The position numbers were made by a program, and so were the translations under genes. A stretch of 64,000 nt of DNA, from NCBI GenBank assembly GCA_024137785.1, contig JAHRHZ010000026.1:9974857-10038856 (forward strand), given 5' to 3'. Positions 1,801 through 53,319 of the stretch are shown piece after piece. A model generated the notes under the pieces. The model searched no databases, had not been told where the DNA came from, and saw only the letters and a list, made by a program, of their open reading frames with translations. Origin of the DNA: Ginglymostoma cirratum (lineage: Eukaryota). Within the stretch, counting starts at the first letter, position 1. Every line of letters starts with the position of its first letter.

Positions 1801-2124
1801 ATGACACGTGTGGGGTATCGTCTTTGGGTGTATTGGCCTTGATAAATTGGGGGTGGGGGTGGGGGGAGTGGTTTACAGGATGGGAGGCTGGGTCTGGGTG
1901 GGGTGCTGTTTTGGAGGATCAGTGCAGATTTGGTGGGTGGAATGACCTAGTGATCTGTTTCTGCCCTTAGGGATTATATGGTTCAATGATGTGCCTGGTA
2001 GTGAACATACCATTCAAGGTGTATTTGTAATCAGGAGAAAATGGTCACCTTGAAGTTACTGTGCTAAAAATCTCTAAATATTTCAATGTAATCCTAGTTT
2101 ACACACTATCTGTTTATCAGTAAT

Positions 2125-2266
2125 TCAGAACTCCAGTTCAGAAGAAGGATCAGTGGACCTGAAATGTTAGCTCTGCTTTCTGTCTACAGATGCTGCCAGA
2201 CATGGCGAGTTTCTCTAGCAGTTTGTTTTCCTGATTTCCAGCATCTGCAGTTTAGTTTTTTTAAAA
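2125..2266 (+). mobile_element. Hammerhead-bearing short element, subfamily B (mostly right arm)
   Basis: tcagaact-cc-agttcagaagaaggatcagtggacctgaaatgttagctctg...ccagcatctgcag. Flanked by near-direct repeats atctgtttatcagtaat (2108-2124) and atcagtttatcggtaat (2267-2283). Confidence 0.7.
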
Positions 2267-4540
2267 ATCAGTTTATCGGTAATGGCTGATGTGGAAGTTC
2301 ATGGCTTCTGGTAAAATTGTGAACTAAATTCTCTATTTTAGCCCATCCACTCTTGAGACAAATTATTCCAATCTACTGCACTCCTTTTTAGTAGTTAGTT
2401 CTCAGTGTCAACTTATTGAATCAAGAAGGAAGTAATACAGTAATGATTCACACTTCGATGAGATCAGTGTGCTACATTGATAGAACCTAGTGTATTTACA
2501 GAATGTACTTCTGCCAGAACATGATGCTGCACAGCTTTCAGTATCACACTCCTCTGTCCATTTCCTCATTTGGGTTTCTTATTTACATATAACAATGTGC
2601 TGCTTTCATATTGAGCAATGTACTGTGCCATAGCAGAGGACTGCAAATGGCAGTGTATGAACTTAATTCAAAATGATTTTATTAATTTGAGCAGGACAAA
2701 GCAACAAAATTTGCCTTCCTGCATTTTCTTTCTTTTAATAAGATTGACTTCCATAAAGTCTGGTTTTGTCTTTCTGCTCCTTGTACCCTTTTCCTGTAAC
2801 ATCAGTATCCAGACTTGTGAAATGTTATTCAGAACTAGTTTGAGAAATTTTGAACTTGATTTGTTGTTGAGCGATATAAATCATTGAGTCTTATCATTTG
2901 AGAATGCGACAACATTTAATTACAAAATTCCAATTGTACTTAATTTCCAAATGGCAAACATCAATGTCAAGTTCCCCAACTTGTGTGAATATGCTTCTGT
3001 TCACCTTCCATCCTCCACACTCCATGATTGTCTCACCCTTCTAATTGGATAGGGATGGTGGTGTCTGGCAAGTATGTTTGACAGTTTCACTCTCAGACTT
3101 TTGCTTGACTAGCCTGTGGGATAGTTCTCCCAATTTTGCATCAAGCCCCCTGATGTTTTTATGGATGACTCTGCGGAGTCAATAGGGCTGTGATTGTCAT
3201 TTCTAGAATACAGGTCAATTGCTGGGTTGCTAAAGGCAGTGTATAAATATCAGTTGTTGGCTGCTTTTATGCAAGTTTAATTTTTGATCACTCCAATTAG
3301 AGTTTTGAGAATATTGGGATGAACTAGTGTTAAAGGCGTTTACAATGAGTCTATTATGTTGCTTTCTTTATTTTCAAGCTGCCATCTTGAAGATACTTCC
3401 CAAATATTGTACCTGAAAGTTGAATAATTGGTTTAATTAATATGAGCATTATCTCCTGATAATCTTAGCAACTAATTTTATGAAGGATGGAAGATTAGTG
3501 TGTTCATCCTGTACCAAGTTCTGCTCAATCATAACGATTTAGATTGCCAAACTTCTCCAGTGCGACTCAACTAAAGTCAGCCTGGGTTTCAACTGCTGAA
3601 CAAAGTCCTGTTGATAAAATTATTCATTTGAGTTAGCCACTATCTCCTGTCCTTTTTCTGTGTCGGCTATCCACTCGTGCATTTGGCACACACCAATATT
3701 TGAATGGCTTGTTGAAGCACATGTACATAGGATGAACTACAGCCATTAAAGGCCACTGGTACAACCACAAAGACTGTTATTTCTTTGCTGGCACCTCTTG
3801 ATCTCGTTGGGTATGTTGGATACAACTGTCCCATGTTAAGCTGCATCCTTTCAGTTGCCTGTAGGGATACCTGTTTAACACACGGATCCATAACTTCACC
3901 CCATCCTCATCTGTCCAATTGTTGTCATGGACATATACATAAATGCTGCAGTGAACTTCATGTTTAGAATGCCTTTATGTCATCTTCATGTTTGAAAATT
4001 ATTGTAGACTTTGATTTTGTTCTACTCGGAATGTAGTCACTATGAATCTTGTAATTTTCTACTTTGTTCAAAAGTTTGCAGTCCACAGTTTGGCTTCTGG
4101 AATTATTGAAGTTCATCAATGAATTTCACTGTGATTTGATGGGCATACATGTTTTTGCTGTCTGTAGATGAATTGCTGGACACTGGTTAATTTCTGATTA
4201 CAGTTTTCAGCCGCAACCATAGATTGTTTCATTCCATAAAAAGGAGCTGAAATCTTTTTTGGCTTTGGTTTGATTTGGCGTACCTGAGTGCATTTATGCA
4301 CAGCGTTTCTGGTAATGATGTAGGCATTCTGATTTTTGAGGACCCATTCTGGTACATGTGTCACATGGCTGGCTTCTGTTGTGATAGCCAATTTAGTTTT
4401 GGCCATTTTCTTCAGAATGGCTACTTCATTCTAATCTGAATCACTTTTTCACAAACCTGGAATTCTTTTGCTTCAGCACTGTTATTTGAGTTAGTAAACA
4501 TTAAGAGCTTTTAACTTGGAAGCATCTTGTATTTCATTCA

Positions 4541-4763
4541 AAAAAACCAAAAGAACTGCAGATGCTGGAAATACAACAGCAAAAACAGTAATTATTTGAA
4601 AAACTCAGCATGTCTGGCAAATTCTGCAGAGAAAAAACAGGTAATGTTTTGGAGCCAATGACTTCTTTCTGACGAAGGGTTGCTGGCTCTGAAATGTTAA
4701 ATGTGTTTTCTCATCTCAAACGCTGCCAGGCATGCTGAGTTTTTCTAGCAATTTCTGTTTTTA
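4541..4763. mobile_element. Palindromic hammerhead-bearing element, subfamily B
   Basis: Inverted arms (aaaactcagcatgtctggca / tgccaggcatgctgagtttt) with core ctgacga-agggt...-gaaatgtt at 4669-4698. ttgtattt occurs on both flanks. Confidence 0.75.
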
Positions 4764-5541
4764 TTGTATTTTGTTTATTTTGCTAAAAGAACTATTCTGT
4801 TCATCACTTGCTTTTTCATGGTCTCCTCTGTCTGTGTGTGTGTCTGTCTTAAGCAATCGTCTTTGCAACAAGGCTCCTATCACCTGTTTGACCCCGTATG
4901 CTGATTTAGAGTGTGAGTCAAGTGCTGAAGAAATAGGGTTATCCTGTATGTCAAGTCAACTTGTGTACTGTGATCTACAGTTTTTCAGCTGACTGGTTTA
5001 GGACCCATGAGCTTCTTGCTCTTTTGTTATCATACATATTTGAATATCTGGTTTAAATCAAAGTAGATTGCACCCACAGTGGCAAACAAACTGGGCTGAT
5101 TCAGGTAGGCACCAGTCTGTTTCATGTAGATTTATAATCTAATTCGAGAGCGCCTGTTCAGCAGCCATGGATATCAGGCAGTGCTAATATTATAGAAGCT
5201 GGTGTCTTTAAACAATCAGCTTGGCTTCCTTTGCTGTGTGGCAAATCACATGACCATCTTTGTTTATTAGCAACCCAAGCCATCTGTTGACTCGTCATTA
5301 TCAGTCATCAGGCAGGAATCCAACTCCTAGGCAGGCAGCCCCTGATGCTAACCCTTCAGACAAGAAGTGGTGTGGCCTTGGTGTATGTAGATTAGCCATG
5401 TGCTATTCAATGGAAAGTGCAACAAGAAAGAGAGAAAGGGATCTCTTCCTTGCATTCATAAGAGGCAGGCAGCAGAGCAGTGTGAGTGAACCAGAGACTC
5501 CACTTGGAACAAGTGTGCAATGTGCTTCCCCACCCCCTCCT

Positions 5542-5549
5542 TGACGTCA
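5542..5549. promoter_or_regulatory. Palindromic CRE (TGACGTCA)
   Basis: Exact match within a repeat-free, motif-dense part of intron 1. Function is untested. Confidence 0.35.
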
Positions 5550-7129
5550 CATCATCACAAACCCTCCTGTCTTTTACTGAGTGTCATTCATTCATTGCCA
5601 AGACTGATGAAAAATTTACTTGGCAACAATTCAAACAGTGCACAGCTGTGAGGTTTTAGATTTTAGGCAGAGTGCCCTCAATTTAAAATGATTTATAAAT
5701 AGTGTGTTGGAGCCTTCCTTCCCACAGTTGGACCTGGCTTGCCATAAGGTACAGCAAATGGAATGATTGTGCCTAACAGTTCTTCATGCTATAGTGAGAT
5801 TTTTCACCAAGTTCCAAAAAATCTTTTTGATTTAATAAGTGGAAATATCTGCTGTAATGATGTCTATATAATCCTCTCAGGAGAAAAGGCGATGTCTTAA
5901 TCCAGTGGAGGGAAAAGGTGACTCCTCCTCTTGATGTAAGAAAGCTGGCTGAAAACACCACAGAGTTGAATTTCCTGTAGATTTGCTGATACTTATTTAG
6001 TTGGAGTATGTCAAAGTTACTTTACGTATCTTTAGGAAATGAGCACCCCCACAGAAAGGGAATGTTCATTTACAGACTAGATTAAAGACCTGTGGAAGTC
6101 CTTTATCCTGTATACAGTAAGTTGAGGCAGCCACAGGACATGAATTTACGTAGTGTTGCTAGGCTTTCAGTAAAGTCCGATGTTGGGTGTTTTGCAGTGT
6201 TAGTATTACTGGCTTGGAGCAGCAAACAACACCTACAGTACCGTTACAGAATTATGACTCCAAATTGAGTTGTCTGGAGGCAACATATTGAACAAATGTG
6301 ATGAAATCCTGGTGGTTTCATACTTGTGCCAATGCACTTCCCCCTTGTATTGAAACACAATTATTTCGTGTGAGGGCTGTTGTTGGCTTTGATTTGTTAC
6401 CTGAGAACTGGATAGTGAATTTGGAAACTTGATGTCTTCGTTGAGATAGAAATGGTGGGACTCTATTATTTTGCGATTGTCTAATTTTCAATCTTTGTAG
6501 TTGAGATCCAGGAGGGTGACCATTGTAAAGCACCAGAGCATTGTAAAATACAGCAGCTGACTGTGTTCAGAATATTTAAGAATAAAAAGTTTTAGGAAAA
6601 GGAAAATGGGCCCATATAGCATAACTACTTTTGGTTATTTCCCTTGTGCTTAAAAGCTGTACCTTCAGCTTTCTAGCCACACTTCCTGAAACGCACTTCC
6701 TAAAAAAAAAAAAGCCCTTAATTGCCCCAACCTCGTTCAGTCAGTTTATTGCCTACCTTCAAATCCATCTTTATCTAGCCTCTTAGTCTAACTTTCCTCT
6801 AAACCACCTCCTTTGCCTGCAAGTCCATTTAATCTGAACCTCTAAAGTGCCTTGAGGCAACTTTTTATATTGAAGATGCTGTGTTAATGCAATTTATTTT
6901 GATTGAATCACAGGAGAGCAATACTTTAATGTTTTCCTGGTTTGTATTATCATTGTCACTGATTAGGGACCAGTTAATTAATAAAAAGTAAAGAGGCCAT
7001 AGTCTTAATTGATCCGAGGTCATTTTGTAAAAAAAAAGCTTTTCTAAACTCTGCAGCTCTAATTGCTATCTGCTTCTTCCCCTACTAAAGAACCTTAGAA
7101 TGGAGGTCAGCTAATTTTATTCTTTGTAT

Positions 7130-8310: not shown

Positions 8311-9758
8311 GCCATTACTGACTTAGTTTTACTTTGCTTTTTAGTGCCAGGGTTAAAATACATTGTCCTGTTAATGGCAAGAGTTTCACTGTGACTGTCT
8401 TGCGATTGTGCCACTAACTCCAAAGTATTTTGGCACCTTTTACTAACAGTGGAGTACCTTTTTTTTTCAGTTTTGTTTATCATGGCAATGTTTAACAGTA
8501 CCAAATCTTGATCAGCTTCAATTACTTTTCCAGTTATTTTCCTGACAAAGCACCGAACTCTTCTGGTTTTTAATATTCTATTCTTGCCTGAATATAGTTA
8601 AAATTTAACTGTTTTTCTGTTGTTTACATGTCACATGCTTGCTAACTAGTTTCTCTTTTGATAAGGCTGGTCTTAAAATGCCTTCCTCCAACTCGGGCAA
8701 ATCATTTTATGTTGCATCTGTGAATTTCAACAACGTGAAGAATCAGAAAGCATTAAATAAGAATTTCTAAATTTTTACAGTTTAAATTGAAATATTATAA
8801 ATTAACAAACCACTTGTAAAGTCCCCATACTACTAAAAATGATCTAATTCCATACATACTACCTATTGGCAGGTGGGGTCAGTAAATGGGTTCACACAGC
8901 TTCATATATATCTCTGCACAACAGCTTCTGCTAAATTATTTCTTAATTTGCGCAGTTAATAACCGTGCATTTTATAGACTTCTCATTTACAATGTGTTAA
9001 GCACGTGAACAAGTAAATGACCTATGACTGCAAGTTAATGCTCAGATTGAGATTAACCAGGTTTCAGTGATTACTTGTATTAACTGTACTTGGATCAGAA
9101 AGTTTATGGATCAGAAAGACCACTTGAATGTAATTCTTAAATGCTGTCTTGACTAAATTAGAGGTCAATTTAACAATTTCTTTTTGCCACAACAGTGTAA
9201 AAGTTGCAACAATTGACAGTACTTCTGCAAATAGTTGTCACAGATACGAAGGGTTGAATGGCTTCTTTCTCTATGTTGAAACCTCCATGGATTTATGTGA
9301 CTAGGCATTCATTGCAATCTGTAAACCTAGGACATGAGGTTTAACTGGTAATCCAGTGTGAAATCTTCTCTTAATGGAAACCTGCTTGCGTTGTAACAAG
9401 TAGTGCCACAATATGATTGCAATCTGGAGGGCATTCATTGTCTTTGGAGATGATGGACTGCGCCCAGGGTGTGTCACTTCTGGATTGAATATCTCCTCGT
9501 TGCTATAGAGGTTGCGTCATGAGTGGCAAACCCTTCCACAGCTAGCCCAGATGAATAATATTGACCTGAGGTCAACATTATTCTTTCCATCTGGTGGCCC
9601 CTCTTCTGCTTTCTGGTCACCTCAAAGTTGAGAGGTTGAGTGTGGAACACCAGGAAACTAGGTGAAGGTACAAAGCTCTGTACCAGGTTTGTATTCTCAG
9701 CATTTTTCTTCATAGCTACAAAACATGAATAATTGCTGTCTGTCCCAGAATAGATTAT

Positions 9759-9885
9759 GATAACAAGGTGTAGAGCTGGATGAACAGCAGGCCGAGCAGG
9801 AAAGTTGACGTTTCGGGCCTAGACCCTTCTTCTCTACACCTTGTTATCTCAGATTTTCCAGCATCTGCAGTTCCTACTATGTCTG
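9759..9885. mobile_element. Internally deleted palindromic element, subfamily A
   Basis: gataacaaggtgtagag ... ctctacaccttgttatc inverted arms around gacgtttcgggcctagacccttcttc. Direct repeat gattatgataa at 9753-9763 and 9886-9896. Confidence 0.8.
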
Positions 9886-11129
9886 GATTATGATAATTCC
9901 TGGTCGAGGCATTTCTGCTGCTCCCATCCTGTCTGTTACGACTGTGTGTGAGGGAACCAAGTGTCACATTGGGTTCCTAAAATGGAAAGTTCTTTTGATC
10001 ATTTGTGTGATGTATGATGAGGTCACATTTGATAAAGAAAACTTTGACAATCATCCTTTGCTTGCTCGCAGTTTGGAAGTGGAAGTTGCCTGCTCTAAGG
10101 AGGTACAAAGATGAAGGTTTAACAAATTGAAATGGTGATTTTGAAAGATAGCTAAAATTGAGTGAATAGCACATAAAACGTGGTCATGTCCAGTAATTGA
10201 AGGGGCTAGAGCAAGGGGACGTTGAGTAAATTAAATGCAGAGGACCTTGGACAGAAAGCAAAAATTTTGGCCGACGTTGAAATGATCCTGTAGAACTCAC
10301 TGAAGTTGACAAAAGCAGAGACTGCGCCTCTGTTTAAGATTAGTTAAATATTTGAAAGAGAACATATTTGGGAGCGTTGAACTGGGAATTTATTTGTGGG
10401 GAGGATAAACTTTGATGCGGGTTGATTAGCCTCATACACTGTGTTCCATTATTGTACTTCATGTAAATCGAATAGCTCCATCTCTAACCATTGCCATGTT
10501 AATTATCCTTAGCGGCAGTGAAGTTGCTATAATTGGGTTCAAGATTCTAAATTTTTTGTAGAAAGTTAGTTGAGTTCCATTTGACATTTTATGCATTTCT
10601 GAAAGTGTTCTGATCAGTTACACTAAATTTTCTATTCAGCAAGCTAAGGATTTATATTCTCAATTTCTGTCTGCTGTCACGCCAAAAAACACAAAACCAG
10701 CCTTTGATGTCTGTTGGGCTGAACATGGAGATTTTTGAAACTTTTTTCTCCAAATGCCATGAACCAAATTCCTAACTGTCAACTCCATCTTTCTCCCTGA
10801 TTGCTGCCTTAGTTCACCCTGATTTGCAATTTTCACAAATATTTATCCATGCGCTGAGCTTCTGCCCCCATACAGTTATTTCTGCTATAATGAGTATTTC
10901 ATTAACGTGAATTGGCTGTAATGTGATTGAATAGTGGACGCTGTTTGGATAATGTGAACTTTCTGCCGTACACATATATAGCGATTTTTCTACAGTGAAT
11001 TCCTTAACTGATTTTATATCGTGCAAGATCACAAGAATGCAACAATTGCATTATAGGAGAACTATCTGTACACAGTTTCTATAAAGAATGCCTAATTCCA
11101 CCTTAATAACAACATCACTCACCCGCCTT

Positions 11130-15551: not shown

Positions 15552-15552
<1 letters not shown>

Positions 15553-15594
<42 letters not shown>

Positions 15595-18045: not shown

Positions 18046-18691
18046 ATCTCAATAACTTTCTTATGATCCCTACACCCACTTGCTGTGCTCATCCCATCTT
18101 GCCATGATGCCACCCTGTGTCTTGCTATGATCTTACTCCTTGCTTTTCTTGGCCTGTCCCAACTTGTTGTGATTGCACTTCTGATCTTCTCGGTTATCTC
18201 TGCTTAAGTCTCTTCCATGAAATAATCACAATCAATACCTGATTATGATTACTGAACCTACCTGATCTGCCTAGTTTTATACTTAGCAAAATTTGCGGCC
18301 TATCCCATAATGGGTTTCTAGGACGCAGCCAACGTTGGCATGAGAGGAAATATTCAAATCTTAAAAGGGATTGCCATTTGATGTTCAGAAAAGTCACAGG
18401 TGTCAACATTTTCCACAATAATCGGTCCTTACAAATGACACTGACTTGTCATGCTGCTAGTCCAGGTTTAAGTCCTGGGTGAGCAAAAATATTGTCCAAT
18501 TAAACATCGGGCCATTAGGTGTGAAATTTGTTCACTCAGCTTCATACAATGCAGACCTACTTCAATTCCCTGAAATATTTCTCTGCTTTTCAATTCTGTC
18601 TCTCCAGAAATGATTCCCACTGCTTTCTTTGGGTTTTATATATTCTCATTGCATGTCAGAATTTTGCCTAAAGATTTTTAAACATATAAAT

Positions 18692-19012
18692 GGGGCAGTA
18701 CGGTGGTACAGTGGTTAGCACTGCTGCCTCACAGCGTCGGGAACCTGGGTTCAATTCCACCCTCTGGCAACTGTCTGTGTGGAGTTTTCACAATCTCCCT
18801 GTGTCTGCGTGGGTTTCCTCTGGGTGCTCAGGTTTCCTTTAACTGTCCAAAGATGTGCAGGCTAGGTGGATCGACCATTCTAAAGTGCCCGCAGTGTTCA
18901 GGGATGTGTAGGTTAGGGGGATGGGTCTGAATTGGGATGCTCTGAGGGTCACTGTGGACTTGTTGGGCCGAAGGGCCTGTTGTCACACTGTAGGGATTCT
19001 GTGATCTATGAT
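18692..19012 (+). mobile_element. HE1-type V-SINE, full length
   Basis: Pol III A box TGGTACAGTGG (18704) and B box GGTTCAATTCC (18748); V-domain tgtgtggagttt...gtgtctgcgtgggtttcctc; CR1-like tail ttgggccgaagggcctgt...ctgtagggattct. Confidence 0.9.
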
Positions 19013-30238: not shown

Positions 30239-30317
30239 GAGATAACAAGGTATGGGGCTGGATGAACACAGCAAGCCGAGCAGGAAAGCTTGACGTTTCG
30301 GGCCTAGACCCTTCATC
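30239..30317 (-). mobile_element. Half-copy of hammerhead-bearing element, subfamily A
   Basis: gagataacaagg...gacgtttcgggcctagacccttcatc flanked by TSD tgttaca (30232-30238 and 30318-30324). Confidence 0.8.
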
Positions 30318-34740: not shown

Positions 34741-34757
34741 TTTTTAGATTACATTGT

Positions 34758-35136: not shown

Positions 35137-36029
35137 TATTCCCTTGTGCTGCTGGTAATTTGTCTTCTCTCTAGTGTGAAAATTTATACTTATCATTAAT
35201 TTGCCAAATGTGTCATTTTCTTATAATCAACTATCATCTTTTTCATAGCTGAGAACTGGCTGATCTTTGTCCAGCACTGCAAGGTATGTCCGTGCAGCAT
35301 TTGTTTGGATGTTCAGCCATTAAATAGTTTGAAGTTACATGAATTACTTTGCCTTACCCAATTAATCTTGGTTTGATATGTTGGCTGATACACAAACACA
35401 TTTAAATGCTAATTTCTGAAATCTCAAATCCATACTTTGGATAACGTGCCATTTAATTCAGAAATAGTGCTTTTGCCACTTGCACTACAGGCTTTGCCAG
35501 TGTGATAAATTGGAGTTTACAGGATCCTTTGACACTGGTGTATATGGTTTAAATGAATGATAAATTCATTAAATTCTGATGACTGTTGGTAAATCATTAA
35601 ACAATTAGAAGTTATTTGAAGTGTTTCGATTTTCAGTAATTGCTTCACTTATTGTCCTGTGAGAAATTGATTTCTGACTCTGCAGGCTGAAGTCTGTGTA
35701 TAGTGAATGTACTGCAGCCTTGGAAGGAACATGGATATCCAGTGGAATCTATAGGTTGAAAAACTTTAGCCAGCGCAAGTGAGTCTGAATTATAGACGTT
35801 ACAATTGTACTGTGATTTCAATCACCTCAATGTGTAGCTAAAGTCACTTCCAATGATAACTAGATAAGGACAGTAAATACCTTCACCAAAGGTAATCGTG
35901 GACCTGAAATATAAAATTTCCAAAAACAACTACCCTACTTACTCTGTATCATCTCTCCATATTCGTGTCCTCTTTGTGCATCACTTCGGGCTTCCCTGTA
36001 TTGAATCCTACATCATGATTACTTTATTA

Positions 36030-36281
36030 AAAACAGAGTTAACGCTTCGCGTCTGCTGACCCCTCCATCCGACAGAAAACAGGTACTTGATGGAAGGCAC
36101 AAAGATAATTCTCCTCATCGCTCGTTATTCTAAACTCGATAGAGCACTGAAGAAGAATGGAGCATTTCTGAAGAAGGATCTAGGCCCGAAACGTCAGATT
36201 TCCTGCTCCTGTGAAGCTGCTTGGCCTGCTGCGTTCCTTCAGTTCTGCACCTTGATATCTTGAAACATTAACTCTGCTTTC
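36030..36281. mobile_element. Subfamily B element with a subfamily A half-copy (36165-36260) nested in its hammerhead-like core
   Basis: Outer arms cagagttaacg / cattaactctg; inner tttctgaagaaggatctaggcccgaaacgtc...caccttgatatct. Confidence 0.7.
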
Positions 36282-37071
36282 AAGATGGCGCTGATAGTAT
36301 CCGTAGTCCGTTTTGTTAATACAAAACAGTCACAACACATGTCACTATGTGCTGATCAGTGGCTTTAATGTTATTCTACTGCTTTCCTGGAGGAGCTGCT
36401 ATTTTTGCTTAGATTGCAGCTGTCTTATACCTCACCATAATATCTAATATTAGAGTATAGGTGGCTGATTTTACTGGTTTGAGGATGACAGGACACCAGT
36501 GTCCTGGCTTACGGTGTGTGCAAGTGTGATTTCTAGTAGAGATACTGACCAATGATCAAACAGCCTGGTTTCTCCTTTCCTAGGAATATGAAACTGACTA
36601 TAGTGCCCCTGCCACATGTCACTCTGAAGGCATATTTTTAATCAACTTAGACTGTATAAAATGTTTTCAACCCATGAGCAACTGCAAGGTCTGTGTAAGG
36701 TACTTGTGTGGATTGTTGTTTTTACATTAGCAGAAGGAAATAGCTTGTAGTAATAGTACAGAAAGTGCCTCCATCTTCTATCTTGAGAGAAGTGAAATAT
36801 CCTGGCCTATCTTTCCTGTTAGGTATATTCTCACATTCGAAATTATTTTTGTATTTACTTCAGTGTCTCTATACTCTATAAATATAGTAATTCAGAACTG
36901 CAGAATATTCCAAATTTGATGTCACCAAGGTTTAATGTAAGATTAATGCAACTTCTAGAGGAATAGAATTGCAAAGTAGAGAAGTGTAACTTAACATTAT
37001 AAATAAACAATAGAGCACTCAACCTTGCTTTGAACCATCCAGCAAACCACCAAAACACAAGTCAATGCTAG

Positions 37072-37285
37072 AGATAGTAGGAACTGCAGATGCTGGAGAA
37101 TCTGAGATAACAAGGTATCGAGCTGGATGAACACAGCTGGCCAAGCAGCATCAGAGGAGCAGGAAAGCTGACGTTTCGGGCCTAGACCCTCCCTCAGAAA
37201 TGATTTCTGAAGAAGGGTCTAGGCCCGAAACGTTAGCTTTCCTGCTCCTCTGATGCTGCTTCGCCTGATACACCTTGTTTTCTCT
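37072..37285. mobile_element. Best-preserved palindromic hammerhead-bearing element, subfamily A, with 11-bp TSD
   Basis: ~37140-37200 is nearly the exact reverse complement of 37204-37265 around a tga loop. TSD gtcaatgctag at 37061-37071 and 37286-37296. Confidence 0.9.
37207..37236 (+). ncRNA. Putative minimal type I hammerhead ribozyme motif
   Basis: CTGAAGA (37207-13), extra A, stem II GGGT-CTAG-GCCC (37215-26), GAAA (37227-30), CGT-T giving palindromic ACGT and a GUH triplet. Stem I is very weak and activity is untested. Confidence 0.6.
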
Positions 37286-37389
37286 GTCAATGCTAGCCTG
37301 TCTGGGCTACCACTTTCTGTGGCGTCTCCTCAAACTTCTTGCGTTAATCAAATGGGGGTTGTTAAAATTATGAAAAATTGAGAAACAAA

Positions 37390-38270
37390 GACAATGTGTA
37401 TTTATATTGCGTCTTTCGAATAGTAAAATTTTAAATGTCTGGGCATTTCACAGACAATTAAAAACGAATGATGATGCCAGGCTACATAAGGGGATTTTAG
37501 GGTAAGTAAATAAAAGTTTAGTCAAAGGAGGGAAATGAGGTTGAGGGGTGGTGAAACTTGGGGAGAAAATTTCAGAGCTTATAAAGGTTTGAGCTCAAAG
37601 GAAGATTTTAGAGCTTATGAAGTCTTAAGCAACTCAGCTTGCCACTTTTGATGCAGTTAAATTCAGTTGCTTGAGAAGTCAGAATTGGAGGAACACTGAA
37701 AAATCAAAGACTAGCAGGTTAGAGGAGGAACCTGGCGATGGAGAGGGGTTGAGCCATGGAACCATTTTGAAAAATGGTATGAATTTTAAAATGTTTCTAA
37801 TGAAGTACAAGTGTAGGTCACCAAGCACTGGGTGAATGAACAAGACTGGTCTGAGTTAGGACATGGGCAGCAGAATTTTATATGGCATTTTTATAGCGTA
37901 GACTGTGGAGGCTGACCATAAATAAGTCAAGAGGCAAGAAAGACATGTATGAGGATTTCAGCTGATAAATTGAGGCAAGAGTTGAGCCCAGTGATGATGT
38001 GGAGGTGGAAATGGGCCATCTTAGTGATGATGGATGAATGAGGTCACAGGCTTATCTTGGTCAAGTGTGACACTAAGGTTGTGAACAACTCGGTTCAGTT
38101 TCAGACAGTTACCAGCGGAGAGATGCTTTTGGTGGCTAAAGGGTGGAGTTTGCGGTGATGCCCAAAGGCACTGGCTGTGGTTTCCCCTTATTCATATGGA
38201 AGACCTTTCACTTAGCTGTTAGTGGATGTTGGGCAAGCGGTTCAACAATTCAGACGGGAAGAGGTGAGAT
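37390..38270 (-). mobile_element. Very old L2-like LINE remnant
   Basis: Purine-rich antisense L2-like sequence starting tttatattgcgtcttt, with gtgacactaaggttgtgaac and agtggatgttgggcaagc blocks. Confidence 0.45.
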
Positions 38271-40250: not shown

Positions 40251-40672
40251 TGAAATTACACCAACATTCCACAAGTCATTTCCATTTTTATCCTTTGGAA
40301 TCCCAATCTCTCTCCTCCTTTACACTTCTTTTCTCATCATTTAGAAATATTCCAGTTTATATTTTTATAATTTGGAAGCAAGTAACTTCACACTTTCTCT
40401 GCCACAGGTTTTCCTATTTATTCAGACTTGAGCGTTAGTTCAGAAAGTCGTTGACATGCAAATCAATTTACTTGATTCCTAAATGTGATATATTTAACAA
40501 TTCATATGAAGTATAGCAATTTGTTACAGTTCAATGAATTTAGTAATCTGCACTCCACTCTGAACATCCTGGTGTAACAGTTTTTATTGTATCTTGAGAG
40601 GATGCAGCTTGTCACTGAGCCCCTGTGTGGCCTAGAGTTTTGAAGTCTGTTTATATATTGGCTTAAAGTAAC

Positions 40673-40865
40673 ATACTGTGGATGCTGGAAAGCAAACACA
40701 ATGCTGGAGAAACTCAGCAGGTCTGACCGTTAATGTTTTGAGTCCAGTATGACTCCCCTTCAATTTCTCTGTAGAGTCATACTGGACTTGAAACCTCAAT
40801 TCTTGTTCCTCTCTCCATGGATGCTGACAAAACTCCTGAGTTTCTCCAACATTGTGTTTTGTTTT
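40673..40865. mobile_element. Palindromic element, subfamily B, degenerate core
   Basis: agtccagtatgactc / gagtcatactggact and cacaatgctggagaaactcag / ctgagtttctccaacattgtg inverted pairs. Confidence 0.8.
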
Positions 40866-41054
40866 ATATTTTGCATTTTGGGAGTTCAAGATAGGTTGCA
40901 ACTAATATCACAACTGGTGTGTGTATGCAAATTGCTGAATGTGACAGGACAAGTTGAGAAGACCATCCTTGGTGTCAAGTAGGGCTGCAGAGGTGGTTGT
41001 GCTAAAACTTGATAAAACACTGACTAGCCTGAGGCAGCTTGCATTTTATATTAA

Positions 41055-41190
41055 AGAAAAACAAAGTGCTGGATAGGTTTGAAACATTAACTCTTTTTCC
41101 TCTCTGCAGATGCTGCCAGATTTACTGAATTTCTGCAATGCCTTTGTTTTTGTTTCAGATCTCCAGCATCCTCAGTTCTTTGTTTTACTT
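41055..41190 (+). mobile_element. Subfamily B element, mostly right arm
   Basis: gaaacattaactct...cagatgctgccaga...ccagcatcctcagttcttt, homologous to 2161-2260. Confidence 0.7.
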
Positions 41191-42639
41191 TTGCATGTAT
41201 GTTATGTTATGTTGTTTTATGTAGTAGAATGTTCTCATTTCACAATTTGAAATTATAGGATTTAGTGAAAGATATCATGAGTTTCTGGCCCAGTATCATG
41301 GGACTACAGAACCATACATGTCAAAATGCTATGTTTGCAAGTGCTGTTAGTTTATTTATTTAATGCTGAGTTAAAATACATTCATGTTTATAGGCAGAGC
41401 CTTAATTTGTTAGAATATTTCATCGTTCTGTTGAAAGTGAAATTTTTCAGTTGTAGCGCATTCTTGCGCCAGATTCCACGAAGGATGGGAATAAATTTAA
41501 ACACCAAATATATAACGCAAAAAGTGACTGAATCAGGTTTTAATGTCACTGAGTCATATTTGGATTAAACATTAAAAATTTGGGCTACCAAGTTTGGAAC
41601 ATCTGAAAAGGCCGATAACAATACTTGATTCATGGGAGCCATTGACACTGAAATGCTAAGGGGTATTTTGAGTAAAAATGCACTAAGGCAGCTGGTCCTT
41701 TTCAGATGGCTCAAACTTCCTAGCTTGAATTTTTGATAGAGTTCAAATATGACTTGGTGACATTAAAATCCGATGGAGACACATTTTAATTTCTTTGTGT
41801 TATATGTTTGGTGTTTAAATTCATTCCCATCCTTCCTGGAATCTGCCTCTTGACCACAAGGTGCTTGATACTTACTGTTATGGTTCAGGCTTGGCCAGCC
41901 ATGAGAAGTGCCCTTTGTTTTGAGGGAATGTGTACGGTGAAATGGTTTTTGGCAATACAAGCTCACATGCTTAAGGTGAAAAGATTTGACTTTTCATTGC
42001 TGTTGCACCCACAATGTCTGGCAAACTCAAAAGACTTGAATTCGTAGATCTAAAATGAATGTGTATCATGTTGCCATTATGTGTTTTCAACGCTGTTGAT
42101 CTTCACATTCCCTGTTGTCACCAGCAGACCTTGTCCTTGAGAAAAAGTAGTGATGTCTGTTGTTAAAAGTATCTCCATTATGGCTCGGAAACCAGCTGAT
42201 CCATTGAATTTCCATATGATCGACCTCTGCAATCCCTCGTACATCTTTATTTCACCATCCTAGGGAACTATAAAAGTAAAGGTTGGTATGCTGTGCACGG
42301 TGATGATAAGAATCTGAGAAGGGCAGCTTAATAGGGGCAGTAGCCTACATGATTCAAGTTGTTTTTTTCCCCGTGAATACTGTGTGGCAGTGGTTGATGT
42401 TTTGGAGATGGGCATCATGTACAGAATGAATATCAAAATTTCTATTTATAAGCCCCTTAGTTGCATTTGTCTCTGAGCTGAAATAGATGCTGGCTTTAAT
42501 TCTTTAAGAAAGTTAAACACCAGGACTTAATTGAATTTAACTGGAATTGGTGTTCCAAATTTAGAGAGTTTTAATTTCAGAAGACCTTCTTTAATAACTA
42601 CACTCCTAAACACTTGCAGATTACAAGGAGCATTTTGAC

Positions 42640-45164: not shown

Positions 45165-46560
45165 AGTCGTAGAGTCAGTTGTACAGCATGGAAATAGACC
45201 CTTTGGTCCAACACATCCATGCTGACCAGATATCCAAAATTTATCTAGTCCCATTTGCCAGCATTTGGCCCATATCCCTCTCAACCCTTCGTATTCATAT
45301 TCCCATCCGGATGCCTTTTAAGTGTTGTAACTGTAACAGCCTTCACCACTTCCTCTGGCAGCTCATTCCATATTACACATCAGCCTCAGCATGAAAAAGT
45401 TCCCCCATGGTCCCTTTTTAAATCTTTCCCTCCTCACCTTAAACCTGTGCCCTCTAGTTTTGGACTCCCCCATCCCAGGAAATAGACCTTGGCTTTGGAC
45501 ATTATCCATGCCCCTCATGATTTGATAAACCTCTGTGATCACCCCTCTGCCTCCGACACTCCAGGGAAAATAATCCCAGCCTATTCACTCTTCTCCCTAT
45601 AGCTCAAACTCTCCAACCCTGGCAATATCCTTGTAAATTTTTTCTGCACCCTTTCAAGTTTAACAATATCCTTCCTGTAGTAGGGAGATAGGAAGCGAAC
45701 ACAGTATTCCAAAAGTGGTCTAACCAATGTCCTGCCCAGCTGCAACTTGACCTTCCAGCTCCTATACTCAATGCACTGACCAATAAAGGCACACACCGCT
45801 TTCACTATCCTGTCTACCTGTGACTCCACTTTCAAGGAACTGTGAACCTGTACTCCAAGGTCTGTTTGTTCAGCAACACTTCCTCAGACCTTACCATAAA
45901 GTGTATAAGTCCTGCCCTGATTTGCCTTTCCAGTATGCAGCACCTCACATTTATCTAAATTAAACTCCATCTGCCACTCCTAGGCCCATTGGCCCACCTG
46001 ATCAAGATCCCATTGTACTCTGAGGTAACCTTTGCTGTCCACTACAATTATTGGGTGTGACCTGCAAACTTACTAACCACAGCTCCTACGTTCACATCCA
46101 AAACACTATATAAATGACAAAAATCAGTGGACCCAGCACTGATCCTTGTGGGCACTGCTGATCACAGGTCTCCAGTCTGAAAAGCAACCCTCCATCACCA
46201 CCCGCTGTCTCCTATCTTCAAGCCAGTCCTGTATGCAAATGGCCAGTTCTCCCTGTATTCAATGTGATCTAACCTTGCCAACCAGCGTACCATGAGGAAC
46301 CTTGTTAAACGCCACATTGAAGTCCATATTTATCACTCCCACTGTTCTGCTTTCATTAATCCTATTTGTTACTACTTCAAAAAACTCAGTCAAGTTAATT
46401 AGACATGATTTCCTAAGCACAAAGCCATGTTGACTATCCCTAACCATCCTTGTCTTTCCAAATACATGTAAATCCTATCCCTCAGAATTCCCTCCAGCAT
46501 CTTCCCCACTACTGATGTCAGGCTTATGGATCTGTAATTCCCTGGCATTTTCTTACCTTA
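45165..46560 (-). mobile_element. Relatively young 5'-truncated CR1 (HER1-like) LINE
   Basis: ORF 46259..46447(-) SQHGFVLRKSCLINLTEFFE...DF..AF.KVPH and ORF 45581..45835(-) TLVRPLLEYCVRFLSPYYRKDIVKLERVQKKFTR. Confidence 0.92.
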
Positions 46561-47954: not shown

Positions 47955-49050
47955 TGAACAGGAGTAGGTCAATTGGCCCTTTGAGCCTACTCCTGCCACT
48001 CGATAAGATCATGGCTGATATTTTAACCTCGACTCTAAATTTCCCCAATAATCCTTCATCCCTTTTTGGTAATCAAGAATCTATCTACTGCTGCAAGAAA
48101 AAGTATGTTTAAAGGTTTATGCATTCACCGCTTTTTGGGGAAGTGAATTTCAATGCCACTCGACCCTCAAAACATTGTTCCTCCTCTGTCTTATATGGGC
48201 AACCCCTTATTTTTAAACTTGACCTCTAGTTCTAGATTCTCAAAAGGAAATATTCTTTCAGTATCTAATATGGTCAAGTCCCCGCAGGGTTGTATACGTT
48301 TCATTTAAGTCACCTCTGATTCTTCTGAGTTCTAGAGGATACAGGCCCAGCCTGTCCAGCCTTTCCTCATAAGGCAATCAGCTTATTCCTGGCTTTACTC
48401 CAGTAAACTCTCTCTGAACTGCTTCCAGCGTATTAATATTCTTCTGTGAGCACAGTGACCAGTACTACACAGTGCTGTAGATGCAGTTTTACTATGCCCT
48501 GTATTGATGAAACATAACCTACGTACTCTTGCATTCAATTCCCTTCTCAATAAGCCATTGCATCCTATTAGCTTTCCTGATTATTTACTGTTCCTGCATA
48601 TAACCACCTGCAATTCATGCATTAGGATATCCAGAGCTCTCTGCATCTGGTTGCAACCTCTAACCATTGAGATAACATGCTTTTTAAAATTCTTTCTGCC
48701 AAAATGGATAATTTCACATTTCCCCCACATTGTACTCCATTTGCCAGGTCTTTGCCTACTTGCTTAAGGAGCCTTTGGAGGGATATGGATCGGTTATGTC
48801 CTCCTCACAACTCATTTCCCTGCCTATCTTTGTATCATCAGCAAATTTAGCTGCCATGCATTTGGTCCCTTCATACAAGTCACTTATAAATTGTAAAGTT
48901 CAGGCCCTGGTAATGACCCCATGACACACCACTCGTGATGTACTGCTAGCCCATATATTCTTGCTAGCCATCTAGTACGCACACACGCACCCCTTTTATT
49001 TGCTACCATCTTTGAGGTATGTATCGGATGCCTTCTGGAAATTTCCATTG
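47955..49050 (-). mobile_element. CR1 LINE fragment
   Basis: Antisense tail aggagtaggtcaattggccct; tcatcagcaaattt is KFADD on the minus strand. Confidence 0.8.
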
Positions 49051-51379
49051 GTTTCCTTTGCACACGGCACAAGTTACTACTTGAAAGAAAGTTAGTTTTA
49101 TCAATGGGAAATCATGTTTAACTATGTTGGATCTGTCTCTTGTCTGGTTATGTTGATCAGGATCTCTGCAACGTAACATGGAAGTTGACCAAGAACTTCA
49201 CAGTAGACTCTGTCTTAACTATTGACAGCAACCTGAACCTACAGAGGAATTTGCTTTTAAGTTGAGCTACCTGAAATGATTCAACATATTAAGTGCTTTT
49301 GCAATAAAAGCTTCCCTTTTTTTTTGTAGCCTCAGTTTGTTCAGTTGCTAAAGAATATTATTGTCAAAGCACAAGTATTGAAGGTTACATGAAAGTTCTG
49401 AATATAAATAGATTATCAGAGTACACCTGTTACAAAAGTTCAGAGAAATGTCAAAATTCAAATGTTTTGTTTTTCTCTGCAAAGACTCTACGGAACTGAA
49501 TTAGAACCTTTATGCACTTGTCAATTATTTTTGAAAATAAAAAACCTTGTGCACTTCAGGAAGTGACATTTAGGATTTGTGCCCTGTTAGGCCATTGTTC
49601 ATTGAAGAACGTTGTATCATTTAGTTGTGTTGGGAGGGGATGGTTTTAATATTCTCAAATAGATGGGTCAACTTCAAAGTGAGAAGAAAGAATAGAGGTT
49701 GCAGAAAACGGCTGGCACCCTGCTTTTCGTCTAGTTTCCTTTGGCATGGAGTTTGCATTTGAAACACTAGCTCCATTTTTAAAATCACCAGACCACCACT
49801 TTGTGAAGCTTATGATCATTTGCAGTTTGTGGAGAGGAAAAAAATTCTATTCCATTTTCTGCAAAGACAGTGACTGATCTCCCAGCTGACAGCTTGTAGT
49901 TGCAAATCTGGGCCCTTCCACTTTTGCTGTTTGAAGCCCAATTCCCGTGGGAGAGTCGATCCGTTTAGGAGTCTTTGTCACAGTGTTGATGACGTTACAC
50001 ATGGTGATAACACATCAAGGCTGACTTGTTCCTTTTGAAAGTGATATCTTGGATTTAATTATTGTATTTCACACCTAATTCTCTTGTGTTCTGTTAATAA
50101 AAATTGTTTTGTTGTACTCGATGAGAGGTGTTGGTGTTAGGGAGGCAACACTTTCCATTTCAGGCAGTCAGTGTCTGCTTCAAATGCTTCGCAATGAGAT
50201 GCTGAATGAACCTTTCTGGGCTTAGATGTGAGTGCTGTCTGTTGTGCCATTCTGGCAGTTTAATCTGTTTCTCTGCACCAACCAACCTTTTTGTAGCTCT
50301 TTTGAGGACAAGATTGTCAGTTAGGAGCAGTATAATGCTGTAGGCCACCTCGACTGAACAGAGCCTGACATGTTGAAACTGGACTAAACTTGAGAAGCAA
50401 GCAATTGGCACTCAAACTATCAGACTGAAGAGAGAAGAGACAATATCTTGTAACTATATGTTCATATCAAATTCAAACTTCCTATCAGTTGGCCTCACTG
50501 ATCTGCATCCGTTTTTAATCAGATGGCTTTGTTAATCAAGGTTCAGTGGAATTGGGGTCAGGGAGGTGAGGGGGTGGGAGGTTATGGAGATATGGTCTTT
50601 ACACTGATACTGTGTAAAATTTGGGTGATGACGGCATATGAAGTTATTTATTGATGGAGATGCATTAAACCAGATTCATGAGTTGCTTTGTGTGATTTGC
50701 CAGCATACTGTATGCCTGGGTTAGGGTGGCAGCATTCACTTTTTACCTTCTGAGTTTGCAACAGTGGCAAGAGTGACCAAGTGCGTAGAACATGTCAGGG
50801 AGAAATGAGCACATTGTGACATCAGTTCAACACATTAGACTCCATGGAGTAATCAGCATTCATTCATCAGGTCAGAGCCTGAAATAAAACTGGGCAGGAT
50901 TTCAAAAGAAAGCTCAAGGCTTTTGTTCGGGAGCCAGCCAGGAGTGTGAGATTCAGTGTGAAATACTTGGACAGCTTCCAGTATTTTGATGGTAATGGCA
51001 GATGGGCAATAAATCGAAAGCACATGGAAAGCACGTGAGACAAACCAATCCTCTCATTCTGTTATTGTTTACAAATGTAAATATTGGCTGAGCTCTGAGC
51101 ACAGACAGGATGGGAATGCTAGCGTCTCATGAATAAGAAGCTCTTTGAGCTTGCACTGCAGTCACTACTGATCAGTATTGGGATTGGGTCACAGGAACAA
51201 TTCTAATTTTAATTGGGCATTTTACTGAACTGCAAGTATAGGAATTGTTTTCTCAAAGTCATTGGCTTTTGTTCAGTGATATAACTTGCGCATAATGGAA
51301 CATTTATGAATAGGGCTTATTAAATGATAGATTTCCTCCTTGCTCCTTTAAGTTCTATATCCTTTGACATGAATACCCT

Positions 51380-51561
51380 ATAAAAACTGAAAGAACTGTG
51401 GATGCTGTAGATCAGAAATAAAAACAAATTGCTGGAAAAGCTCAGCAGGTCTGATAGCTGTGAAGAGAAATCAAGGTTAACATTCCAGGTCACCGGAACT
51501 GATTTCTCTTCACAGGTGCCGTTGGATCTGCTGAGCTTTTCCAGCAATTTCAGTTTGTGAT
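51380..51561. mobile_element. Palindromic element, subfamily B, core deleted, with TSD
   Basis: aaattgctggaaaagctcagcag / ctgctgagcttttccagcaattt perfect inverted arms. TSD atgaataccct (51369-79) and atgaacaccct (51562-72). Confidence 0.85.
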
Positions 51562-53319
51562 ATGAACACCCTGACGGGTCCCCATCACCTTGACATCACT
51601 GTAGAAATTTAACATCTGTAAATCTAGGTGAATGCAGTCACTCCCATATTTTTTAAAGAGTAAAGATTAATGTAACAGTGATAATATTTTGCTGTAAAAT
51701 GGCAATAGAGCAACAGTATATGGGGATTGAAACTGCATGCATTAGCTGATTCCCAGTGTGCAGTATTAATCTTTGAGAGCACTCGCTGTTACTGCACTTG
51801 CAAAACTGTACTAATGCTGCTGAACCAAAGATGGGCAGTTCATTTCGATCACAGTATGCAATGGTTAAAATCTATGGTACTTTGTCACTAGAATAACCTA
51901 AACTGCTTGGGCAGGCATTCCCTATATGGAGAAGGCGGTTGAGACTGCCATTTTCTCTTGTTTAACCACCATTTTGTATGGTAATTAAGGAGTAGGAATC
52001 AATGTGTAAAACTGACCTGGTCGGTTCTTGTAAGCAAAAGTCTAAGATTGCTCAGAGTTACTGTGTCTGTTTTCTTATTAATACTGGGGTTGAGGACTGA
52101 ACAAGCAGACAGAGGTTCTGATTTTGAGTTTGTCCTGTAACTGGCTGAATGAATGGACTCAGCTACCTAGAATAATGTTGGAAAAGATAATTTGAAATGT
52201 TACCTGGATTTAAATTGGACTGCTGTTGGGCTTTCATTTTAGTATGCCTCATGCAGTGTCTAGGCAGAATTTATGTAAGATTAAAATGCAATGATTTGCA
52301 GAAAACTAAGGTGAGAGGCAAGTTCATTGCAAGATATTTCCTCTGATCTGGGGCAGGGTTTATAATGCGTTTAAATGAATTTTTGGGAACCTGTTTGGTT
52401 GAAATTGGTAAATTACAAAATCTGTGGTATGTGTATGGCCTAAAATGTGTGACTGGTGTATAAAGTTTAAGGGCTTTGATGCATCTCTACTTATCACACT
52501 AAGTGCAGTTATAAAGGGGAAATGAGTTTTTTGGCTGGAACAGTGTGCAGTCTTGGGTGGTGCAGTGTTTCAAGTAGGACTTGAACACAGGGAGATTTAA
52601 CAGTGAACCTTGTCCTGTCTCCAGCTGATAGCTAATTACTCGATTGTTGTCTAATGCTTAGAACACATTTTCAAAGAGCAAGAAAAAAGTAGTTCCAGTA
52701 ATTTAAATGTGATGATGTCATTGTGCATGAAAGGATGGTAATCCCAGACTGACTGGCTGTGCCAGCCAGGGCTATACTTAAAACATGGCAGGAGGAGGCA
52801 CAAATACCCGCTGTCCAACTTCTTCCATAGTTTACTGAAAGTTTTAAGTTTAGATTATCCTTGAGAGTTGGATTTTAAAAGATGTGCAGTGTGGCGTCAA
52901 CTGTCTAAGTTTTTGTTTGACTCTAACGAAATTCAGGATTGTTAATGTGGTATTTAAACCGTGATGCGCAGTAGATTAATTTAGCATTGTCTCCTCCTCT
53001 ACCCTTTTGCTAATTAGGCACAATGTAAATGCATTATAATAGCAATTTTCACATCAGATATATATTGTTTTCTGAAGTTGAAATAATTATTCCATGGTCA
53101 GTATGTATTGTGGCAGATTTTCTAGCTTGTATTATATGGCCTATTTTGCTGCTAGAAAATACATGACATGTTGGTGCACCAATATCAGACATTGTATGTG
53201 TGAAATGAACAGTTCCAGCTGAACTGTAGTTGGAACTTGCATTCAGTTTCCAGACCAAGATAAATAGAGGTTCTTGAAATTGCAAGAACATAAAGAATGC
53301 AAAAAATTAACATTAAAAT

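What the first reader, a model, noticed from the sequence alone, without database searches (positions are those of the whole stretch)
2108..51572. At least nine copies in two subfamilies conserve the hammerhead core while stem II differs; TSD lengths vary
Seen: subfamily A (9759, 30239, 36165, 37072) has stem II GGGT-ctag-GCCC and GAAACGTC. Subfamily B (2125, 4541, 36030, 40673, 41055, 51380) has different stem II sequences (ggatc-agt-ggacct, gagtc-atact-ggactt, gggtt-gct-ggctct) between CTGANGAA-like and GAAAYRTT motifs where the core survives. Both share the outer end gaactgcagatgctgga. In B, agtt before the core can pair with aact after GTT, giving a 4-bp stem I. Flanking direct repeats are ~7 bp (30232), 11 bp (9753, 37061, 51369) and ~17 bp (2108), and copies range from half-arms to full palindromes. 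Inference: sequence turnover with retained pairing implies selection on RNA structure in the source elements, and variable TSDs with asymmetric truncation fit target-primed reverse transcription rather than cut-and-paste. About one copy per 6-7 kb here suggests a very high genomic copy number of ribozyme-like motifs.
Basis: partly seen in the sequence, partly recalled or inferred. Interest (0 to 1): 0.72.

Follow-up and report, generated by a model that had tools for sequence, protein, structure and literature searches.

The report
Mini Penelope retroelement ends with hammerheads
These short, often mirror-image repeats are most likely stump-sized insertions of the ribozyme-bearing end of a Penelope-like jumping gene; the kind is known and most copies are broken, but their lopsided ends suggest how such elements insert.

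Summary
The repeats are real: ten loci, one homologous family in two age classes, with 7-17 bp flanking duplications. They match the published anatomy of endonuclease-bearing Penelope-like elements (PLEs): minimal hammerhead consensus, head-to-head inverted arms, and a 34-nt 'tail' on exactly one arm in 6 of 6 two-armed copies. Two claims fail. Only 3 sites keep the whole catalytic core, and covariation is not significant (474 of 500 shuffles score as high). In the palindromic copy the arm-arm hairpin abolishes the ribozyme fold. Contigs from four public runs pile up at three fixed boundaries: the tail end, a second end 33 nt inside, and a 5' end just upstream of the core. No pile is listed at the cleavage site. 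Best mechanism (inferred): both target nicks prime reverse transcription, at the two start sites, and the two cDNAs are joined head-to-head. No link to an RT/GIY-YIG gene and no empty site was obtained. This scan noted the same kind earlier in other shark-like genomes. New member of a known kind.

The parts
2108..2124 (+). Left target duplication of copy B2125 (partner 2267-2283; 17 bp with 2 mismatches, 13 bp with 1)
2125..2266 (+). Subfamily B single arm with tail; short hairpin at its 5' end; core 2139-2168 with U4>A; the only copy with a 4-bp helix I
4545..4662 (-). B4541 left arm: tail present, cut inside stem II, no core
4665..4763 (+). B4541 right arm: complete core 4669-4698, no tail; weak 12-bp duplication 4527-4538 / 4764-4775
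9753..9763 (+). Left target duplication of A9759 (exact partner 9886-9896); its last 5 bases equal the element's inner end (possible primer microhomology)
9764..9832 (-). A9759 left arm: hammerhead cut in the core, 14-nt internal deletion, no tail
9833..9885 (+). A9759 right arm: about 19 nt of body plus tail, no hammerhead
30239..30317 (-). A single arm, no tail, same 14-nt deletion as 9759; 7-bp duplication 30232-30238 / 30318-30324
36030..36072 (-). 43-nt B-type arm fragment (decayed core, stem II, cleavage triplet)
36163..36260 (+). A single arm, complete core 36168-36195 with a stem II mismatch, no tail; lies between two pieces of a B-type arm (about 36147-36162 and 36261-36282), probably nested
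37061..37071 (+). Left target duplication of A37072 (exact partner 37286-37296; last 2 bases overlap the tail end)
37070..37103 (-). 34-nt tail; outer boundary 37070 and inner boundary 37103 both recur in hundreds of contigs
   Evidence: (table 7)
37104..37202 (-). A37072 left arm body; core has A9>G; predicted cleavage between 37170 and 37169
37203..37285 (+). A37072 right arm, no tail; best-preserved minimal hammerhead (core from 37207, predicted cleavage after 37234); fixed 5' boundary at 37203-37204
40661..40862 (.). B40673 two-armed copy: tail on left arm only, both cores decayed, longer loop II; 11-bp duplication 40650-40660 / 40863-40873 (1 mismatch)
41047..41190 (.). B41055: short tail-less left arm (to about 41075) plus right arm with tail, cut in stem II; duplication uncertain
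51380..51561 (.). B51380 two-armed copy: tail on left arm only, no core on either arm; 11-bp duplication 51369-51379 / 51562-51572 (1 mismatch)

Best explanation
The repeats are short insertions of the hammerhead-bearing terminal repeat (pLTR) of an endonuclease-positive Penelope-like retrotransposon, in a vertebrate genome (probably a shark or ray; taxon recalled from SINE likeness, not tested). Identity as PLE-derived: about 0.88. Mechanism, inferred (about 0.5 within that): the element's protein nicks both target strands a variable 7-17 nt apart. Each 3' end primes reverse transcription on pLTR RNA, one at the outer start site (tail end) and one at the inner start site about 33 nt in. The inner-primed cDNA often runs to a fixed RNA 5' end at the foot of the ribozyme, the other stops at a variable place, and the two are joined head-to-head. 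The result is a lopsided palindrome with one tail; one priming alone gives a single arm. The hammerhead is carried along from the source element, does not set the boundaries, and is dead or buried in most genomic copies. SHOWN: homology, motif, duplications, one-sided tail, recurrent boundaries, variable centres. INFERRED: PLE source, RNA template, double priming.
For: (1) The core at 37207 fits the published PLE minimal-hammerhead consensus: extra base after A9, G10.1-C11.1, palindromic 15.2-16.2 without loop (PMC4209133). (2) Head-to-head arms and a 34-nt extension on exactly one arm in 6 of 6 two-armed copies (1.6% if each arm had it independently at 50%). This is the PLE signature in PMC8557442 and PMC3846280. 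(3) Variable 7-17 bp duplications. (4) loose-end piles: 37070 (204/775/968/986 contigs in X1/X11/X4/X8); 37120, whose consensus reads to the 37103 end and then turns to unrelated A/T-rich sequence (66/276/314/310); 37204 (185/267/235 in X11/X4/X8). (5) 12 of the 15 joints shown go from the tail-side arm (37100-37172) to 37203-37212; 7 of the 12 leave at 37100-37116, at or near the inner start site. (6) In 9759 and 4541 each arm holds sequence the other lacks, so neither is a simple DNA fold-back copy of the other. (7) In vitro, an anole PLE protein cuts and extends both strands, starts at two adjacent sites that delimit the tail, and does not need hammerhead cleavage (PMC11167929). (8) Arms of one copy are 71, 77 and 84% alike against 56-74% between copies.
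Against: No RT/GIY-YIG gene was linked to the family. None in 30 of 31 ORFs of 100 aa or more or in 150 of 157 ORFs of 66-99 aa (the one RVT_1 fragment at 21025 is not next to a copy). Protein searches with arm translations gave only short chimeric gene models or nothing. No empty site was seen. One search shows only 15 of 458 joints and 24 of 1564 loose-end rows, with 20-30 matching letters on the shorter side, from de Bruijn contigs that can be chimeric; a pile directly at 37103/37104 is not among the rows shown. In 41055 the tail arm is the longer one and in 51380 both arms are cut, so the pattern is not uniform. Later deletions or arm-to-arm conversion could mimic points 6 and 8. Target A/T-richness is not distinguishable from background.
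Confidence: 0.82

Rival explanations
1. Same PLE origin, but the inverted arm arises by self-priming (fold-back) of the cDNA or of an antisense template, as proposed for rotifer PLEs.
For: Small hairpins at some centres (2125, 37072, 51380); within-copy arms are more alike than between-copy arms; model in PMC3846280.
Against: In 9759 and 4541 one arm has the ribozyme without tail and the other the tail without ribozyme. Several joints leave the tail arm at 37100-37102, so the inverted piece is almost only tail. A copy of the first cDNA cannot give either pattern unless later deletions are assumed.
Confidence: 0.3
2. A dedicated non-autonomous RNA element (SINE-like or monomeric retrozyme) with its own masters and a working, selected ribozyme, mobilised in trans by a PLE.
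For: Fixed 5' boundary with unrelated upstream sequence in 185-267 contigs per run; two copies share a 14-nt deletion; a stem II variant that keeps pairing is seen in 160-214 contigs (37180 pile and 37181 C>T); retrozymes derive from pLTRs (10.64898/2026.07.22.740005).
Against: No head-to-tail tandem units, which define non-LTR retrozymes. No listed pile of ends at the cleavage site. Helix I of A is about 2 bp; covariation is not significant. In X1, 52 contigs carry a common pyrimidine-rich sequence upstream of 37203, so longer source elements exist.
Confidence: 0.25
3. A non-autonomous DNA transposon (MITE) whose terminal inverted repeats happen to resemble a hammerhead.
For: Strong palindrome (-142 kcal/mol, z -16), short, non-coding, high copy.
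Against: The two ends differ by a 34-nt one-sided extension, duplications vary from 7 to 17 bp, single arms carry their own duplications (2125, 30239), centres differ between copies, and the core motif is above chance.
Confidence: 0.05

Closest known systems
Minimal hammerheads in pLTRs of metazoan Penelope-like elements (Cervera and De la Pena 2014, PMC4209133; read: main text parts 1-2 of 4, supplement parts 1-2 of 3)
   Same: Core, extra base after A9, G-C closing pair, loop-less palindromic helix III, short helix I, many dispersed solo copies (about 4,000 in coelacanth, 9,000 in Xenopus). The coral Neptune-type entry in Fig. S3 has the same eight-base core end followed by the same next bases as subfamily A.
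   Different: No cartilaginous fish is among the chordates in Fig. S3. Stem II is short (4-5 bp). Here the motif sits at the centre of 130-220 bp palindromes and no adjoining ORF was found.
EN+ PLE insertions with inverted pLTR and 30-40 bp tail (PMC8557442, passages; PMC3846280, passages and Discussion)
   Same: Head-to-head inverted copy, tail on one end only, 8-10 bp duplications in the rotifer examples, palindrome at the inverted junction, solo pLTRs.
   Different: Reduced to the terminal repeat alone, with a sharply recurrent 5' boundary at the foot of the ribozyme; far more copies than in the rotifer.
Poseidon element of Anolis (PAc) in vitro (PMC11167929, main text parts 1-2 of 4)
   Same: Hammerhead upstream of two adjacent RT start sites that delimit the tail; both target strands cut and extended; cleavage not needed; no read ends at the cleavage site.
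   Different: No sequence link tested. The PAc start region is AC-rich in the RNA, whereas the ends here are pyrimidine-rich on the hammerhead strand. PAc's ORF starts at stem II; no ORF start is established here. The parts read do not explain how inverted arms form.
Animal non-LTR retrozymes (10.64898/2026.07.22.740005, main text parts 1-3 of 5; supplements closed)
   Same: pLTR-derived, non-coding, type I hammerhead, many monomers, reported in one chondrichthyan.
   Different: Retrozymes are head-to-tail tandems with a ribozyme per unit; these are head-to-head or single arms.
L1 twin priming (as summarised in PMC2246262 and PMC9148063, passages)
   Same: Both target ends prime on the RNA, giving an inverted junction inside a target duplication.
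   Different: In L1 the second primer anneals at variable internal sites and (recalled) the pieces do not overlap; here both starts look fixed and the arms overlap from almost nothing to fully.

Membership tests
EN+ Penelope-like element | Single ORF with telomerase-like RT and GIY-YIG endonuclease linked to the terminal repeat | tested here: inconclusive
   None in the window and no protein link. Stumps are not expected to carry it and no genome was available.
EN+ Penelope-like element | Minimal hammerhead consensus in the pLTR | tested here: met
   37207 fits all consensus features; 3 full cores against 0.23 expected.
EN+ Penelope-like element | Inverted, 5'-truncated copy adjoining head-to-head | tested here: met
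   6 two-armed copies; 12 of 15 shown joints.
EN+ Penelope-like element | Optional 30-40 bp tail, usually at one end | tested here: met
   34 nt, on one arm in 6 of 6 two-armed copies and on 1 of 3 single arms examined; two recurrent ends.
EN+ Penelope-like element | Short target duplications of variable length | tested here: met
   7-17 bp at 6 of the 10 boundary pairs tested with null at most 2% at 0-2 mismatches, plus a weak one at 4527.
EN+ Penelope-like element | Duplication present once at an empty orthologous site | not testable with these tools
   Runs of the second organism hardly cover the flanks (tables 2 and 8).
Active hammerhead ribozyme | Intact core with helices I-III able to form | tested here: not met
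   For most copies the core is broken. For 37207 the helix pair probabilities are 0.0 in the whole copy and in the single arm; stem II forms (0.83-0.92) only in the isolated 43-nt core, helix I does not. No Rfam hammerhead hit at E<=5.
Active hammerhead ribozyme | Self-cleavage at the NUH site (as a dimer or protein-assisted) | not testable with these tools
   Needs an assay; contigs cannot show RNA ends.
Active hammerhead ribozyme | Covariation in stems I and II | tested here: inconclusive
   Not above shuffles on 9 decayed arms; the sample is too small to exclude it in source elements; one pairing-preserving variant is common in contigs.
Non-LTR retrozyme | Head-to-tail tandem units each with a hammerhead | tested here: not met
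   No tandem units among the ten loci.
MITE / non-autonomous DNA transposon | Matching terminal inverted repeats at both ends and fixed-length target duplication | tested here: not met
   One-sided tail, 7-17 bp duplications, single arms with duplications.

The most novel reading that the evidence does not exclude
The family records the PLE insertion reaction at very high copy number. The one-sided tail and the inverted pLTR, long-standing oddities of PLEs, would both come from twin priming at two fixed reverse-transcription start sites, with the inner cDNA running off the RNA's 5' end at the foot of the hammerhead (a strong-stop-like product). Ribozyme cleavage would play no part in setting ends. 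In subfamily B the cleavage site may also overlap the branch point of a 3' splice site (pyrimidine tract, then CAG in 5 of the 8 B-type arm pieces printed, ATG next in two), tying ribozyme folding to splicing. Three papers held 'Penelope' with 'twin priming'; in the passages read none applies it to PLEs.
Probability: 0.4. Interest if true: 0.6.

Novelty: new member of a known kind. Interest (0 to 1): 0.33.

Why it matters
As a ribozyme discovery it matters little: such motifs in Penelope-like elements are published, and most copies here cannot fold. Its value is as material. How PLEs make inverted terminal repeats and one-sided tails is open, and a family with thousands of dated insertions lets twin priming, fold-back and cleavage-defined ends be told apart by counting junctions. 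In practice the family looks like a MITE or a pre-miRNA (mir-761 hit, E 0.006, far below the family's cut-off) and gets built into predicted proteins (13 chimeric gene models), so it should be masked and labelled correctly. About 2.3% of this window consists of it.

Tried and rejected
No whole genome was held, so genome-wide consensi, duplication tables and R-scape-scale tests were not possible. Rfam: no hammerhead family at E<=5. Outside homologues: one pattern gave 4 viral loci that are chance matches; two more specific patterns gave 0 in viral contigs, 0 in metagenome contigs and one of them 0 in genome contigs; blastn on plasmids gave 0. Link to a coding element: three arm translations were searched. 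One gave 8 and 12 short gene models (13 distinct) with unrelated flanks and no RT or GIY-YIG domain; two gave nothing; ESM Atlas best score was 0.78, uninformative. The third frame of subfamily A was not searched. Empty sites: organism B is too distant in the flanks. Expression: no RNA holder listed on record; X1 is only guessed to be RNA. Summed depths are not copy numbers and were not used as such. One search used a mis-registered structure and was replaced. Five short motifs were found in no paper text. The whale-shark repeat library FASTA is not readable, so the Dfam/Repbase/RepeatModeler status of this family is unchecked and it may already be catalogued; the preprint's supplements were closed. 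Two isolated cores co-fold through the near-palindromic stem II rather than helix III; I gave this no weight because the common loop variant is not palindromic.
Full report
Setting. The window is 40% G+C non-coding DNA with no ORF above 175 aa. Pfam found one reverse-transcriptase fragment at 21025 and one PF09004 fragment at 21548, both away from the copies, in 30 of 31 ORFs of 100 aa or more and 150 of 157 ORFs of 66-99 aa. tRNA-like SINEs at 18687 and 53314 resemble, from recall, the HE1 SINE of sharks and rays; the taxon was not tested. No genome was held.

Observation. The ten loci are one family. Profiles of A and B cross-hit at E about 1e-9, and the joint profile finds no other copy below E 0.1. 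Oriented on the hammerhead strand, an arm runs from the core outward for about 100 nt and may continue for a further 34 nt (37070-37103). The copies cover about 1,470 bp, 2.3% of the window. The claim that nine copies conserve the core is too strong. A scan of both strands finds 3 complete cores (4669, 36168, 37207) against 0.23 expected in 60 first-order resamplings, and only 37207 has an unbroken stem II. On 9 core-bearing arms 82.5% of stem II cells pair, but covariation is no higher than in shuffles (474/500; one row is misaligned). The 4-bp stem I rests on copy 2125 alone.

What it is. The core at 37207 matches the consensus for minimal hammerheads of Penelope-like elements (PMC4209133), which occur by the thousand as solo motifs in fish, coelacanth and frog. 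Cartilaginous fishes are not in that paper's Fig. S3; a 2026 preprint reports tandem retrozymes and PLEs in one. Rfam has no matching hammerhead family, as expected for a motif without helix III. The decisive feature is the 'shared outer end'. It lies in the 34-nt extension, which is on 7 of 15 arms examined and on exactly one arm in each of the 6 two-armed copies (9759, 37072, 4541, 40673, 41055, 51380). An inverted 5'-truncated copy plus a 30-40 bp tail at one end is the described anatomy of endonuclease-bearing PLEs (PMC8557442; PMC3846280; PMC8969392). A DNA-transposon reading fails on unequal ends, variable duplications and single arms with their own duplications.

Beyond the window. Contigs of four runs were laid on 35800-37800 at 85% likeness. 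X1 holds the flanks with no difference, so it is probably the window's species; X11, X4 and X8 are a second organism whose flanks hardly align, so no empty site could be seen. 10,160, 54,312, 63,467 and 71,320 contigs were laid, nearly all on repeats; this is not a copy number, but 1,443-6,928 of them fit only partly, which points to thousands of loci. Of 1,564 loose-end rows 24 are shown. They pile at 37070 (204, 775, 968, 986 contigs), at 37120 (66, 276, 314, 310; the consensus is a variant that reads to the 37103 end and then becomes unrelated A/T-rich sequence) and at 37204 (185, 267, 235 in the second organism). In X1 the pile at 37203 (52 contigs) has a common pyrimidine-rich upstream sequence, so longer elements exist. 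No shown row marks truncation at the cleavage sites (after 37234; between 37170 and 37169); the 16 contigs at 37169 in X1 continue in the element after a one-base insertion. Of 458 joints 15 are shown; 12 run from the tail-side arm (37100-37172) to 37203-37212, and 7 of these leave at 37100-37116. A variant of stem II that keeps four pairs with another loop is common (160-214 contigs at 37180). Four of the 8 gene models also begin matching at the same 5' boundary with unrelated sequence before it.

Mechanism. Shown: two outer ends 33 nt apart, a recurrent 5' end at the foot of the ribozyme, variable centres, variable duplications. Known from the anole element in vitro (PMC11167929): the protein cuts and extends both strands, starts at two adjacent internal sites that delimit the tail, and does not need ribozyme cleavage. 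Inferred: each nick primes at one of the two sites and the two cDNAs are joined head-to-head. This explains one tail per copy, joints that cluster at the inner site, and copies such as 9759 and 4541, in which one arm has the ribozyme without tail and the other the tail without ribozyme. Fold-back (PMC3846280) cannot give that without later deletions, though hairpins at some centres and the closeness of within-copy arms (71, 77, 84% against 56-74%) fit it too. I put double priming at about 0.5 and fold-back at about 0.3. An earlier scan note (e1-7858806) said that the mirror half is built anew at each insertion; I saw it before framing this model and tested the idea only.

Ribozyme state. The whole 37072 copy folds as one hairpin (-142 kcal/mol, z -16), in which the hammerhead helices have probability 0.0; stem II forms only in the isolated core. 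With no helix III and one core per strand, palindromic copies cannot form a cis dimer. They are ribozyme-like motifs, mostly not ribozymes.

Against my reading. No RT/GIY-YIG partner was found, and no homologue in viral, metagenome, genome or plasmid collections. Membership therefore rests on non-coding anatomy. The contig tables are truncated and may hold assembly chimeras. 41055 and 51380 do not show the long tail-less arm. Whether the source is a coding element or a short non-autonomous master is open; the 14-nt deletion shared by 9759 and 30239 could be either. Repeat-database status is unchecked.

Novelty. Hammerheads in PLE ends, inverted arms and tails are all in print, and this scan has noted the same kind in other shark-like genomes (e1-7858806, e1-7857333, e1-7858743; unchecked notes, and no sequence look-alike was returned). 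Ten literature searches gave no description of this family, and no use of twin priming for PLEs in the passages read; the library lacks most subscription papers. Verdict: new member of a known kind, interest 0.33, with a testable mechanistic lead.

Noticed in passing
window 41470-41845: A separate 376-bp near-perfect palindrome (about -176 kcal/mol), MITE-like, with symmetric ends and no obvious long target duplication; unrelated to the hammerhead family.
   Followed up: partly
window 18687-19010 and 53314-53640; tRNA-like piece at 25901-25960 (- strand): tRNA-derived SINE copies, 75-78% alike; they resemble the elasmobranch HE1/V-SINE from recall only.
   Followed up: no
B-type arms, e.g. 2161-2200, 41081-41120, 51446-51486 (-): Just 3' of the cleavage triplet lie a branch-point-like pentamer, a pyrimidine tract and CAG (5 of 8 B-type arm pieces printed), followed by ATG in two; the three subfamily A arms printed lack CAG there. 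Possible 3' splice site overlapping the ribozyme.
   Followed up: partly
joint 37070 to 37103, opposite strands: 5, 12 and 21 contigs in X11, X4 and X8 join a tail end to an inner end tail-to-tail with a few letters between; possibly double insertions at one site. Unexplained.
   Followed up: no
window 36030-36282: Composite: an A arm lies between two pieces of a B-type arm, splitting its stem II, with a B-type fragment 75 nt upstream on the other strand; no target duplication found.
   Followed up: partly
window 35871-36030: Another repeat family (depth in the hundreds to thousands in the second organism); one high-depth contig joins it to the 5' boundary of the hammerhead arm.
   Followed up: no
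window 21025-21838, 30861-31055, 45177-45373, 48295-48952, 56488-57329, 60594-60672, 62099-62293: Decayed LINE fragments (RVT_1 at 21025, PF09004 at 21548; repeat families D1, D7, D10 and inverted pairs I2, I4, I8-I10).
   Followed up: no
proteins P0001-P0013: Predicted eukaryotic gene models that have absorbed the repeat's translation, three of them joined to MIF, HAUS1 or plexin fragments; probably annotation artefacts, exonisation not excluded.
   Followed up: partly
window 36818-37095 and 37249-37800: Covered without differences by contigs of run X1 (guessed RNA, may be DNA); the host gene, if any, was not identified.
   Followed up: no
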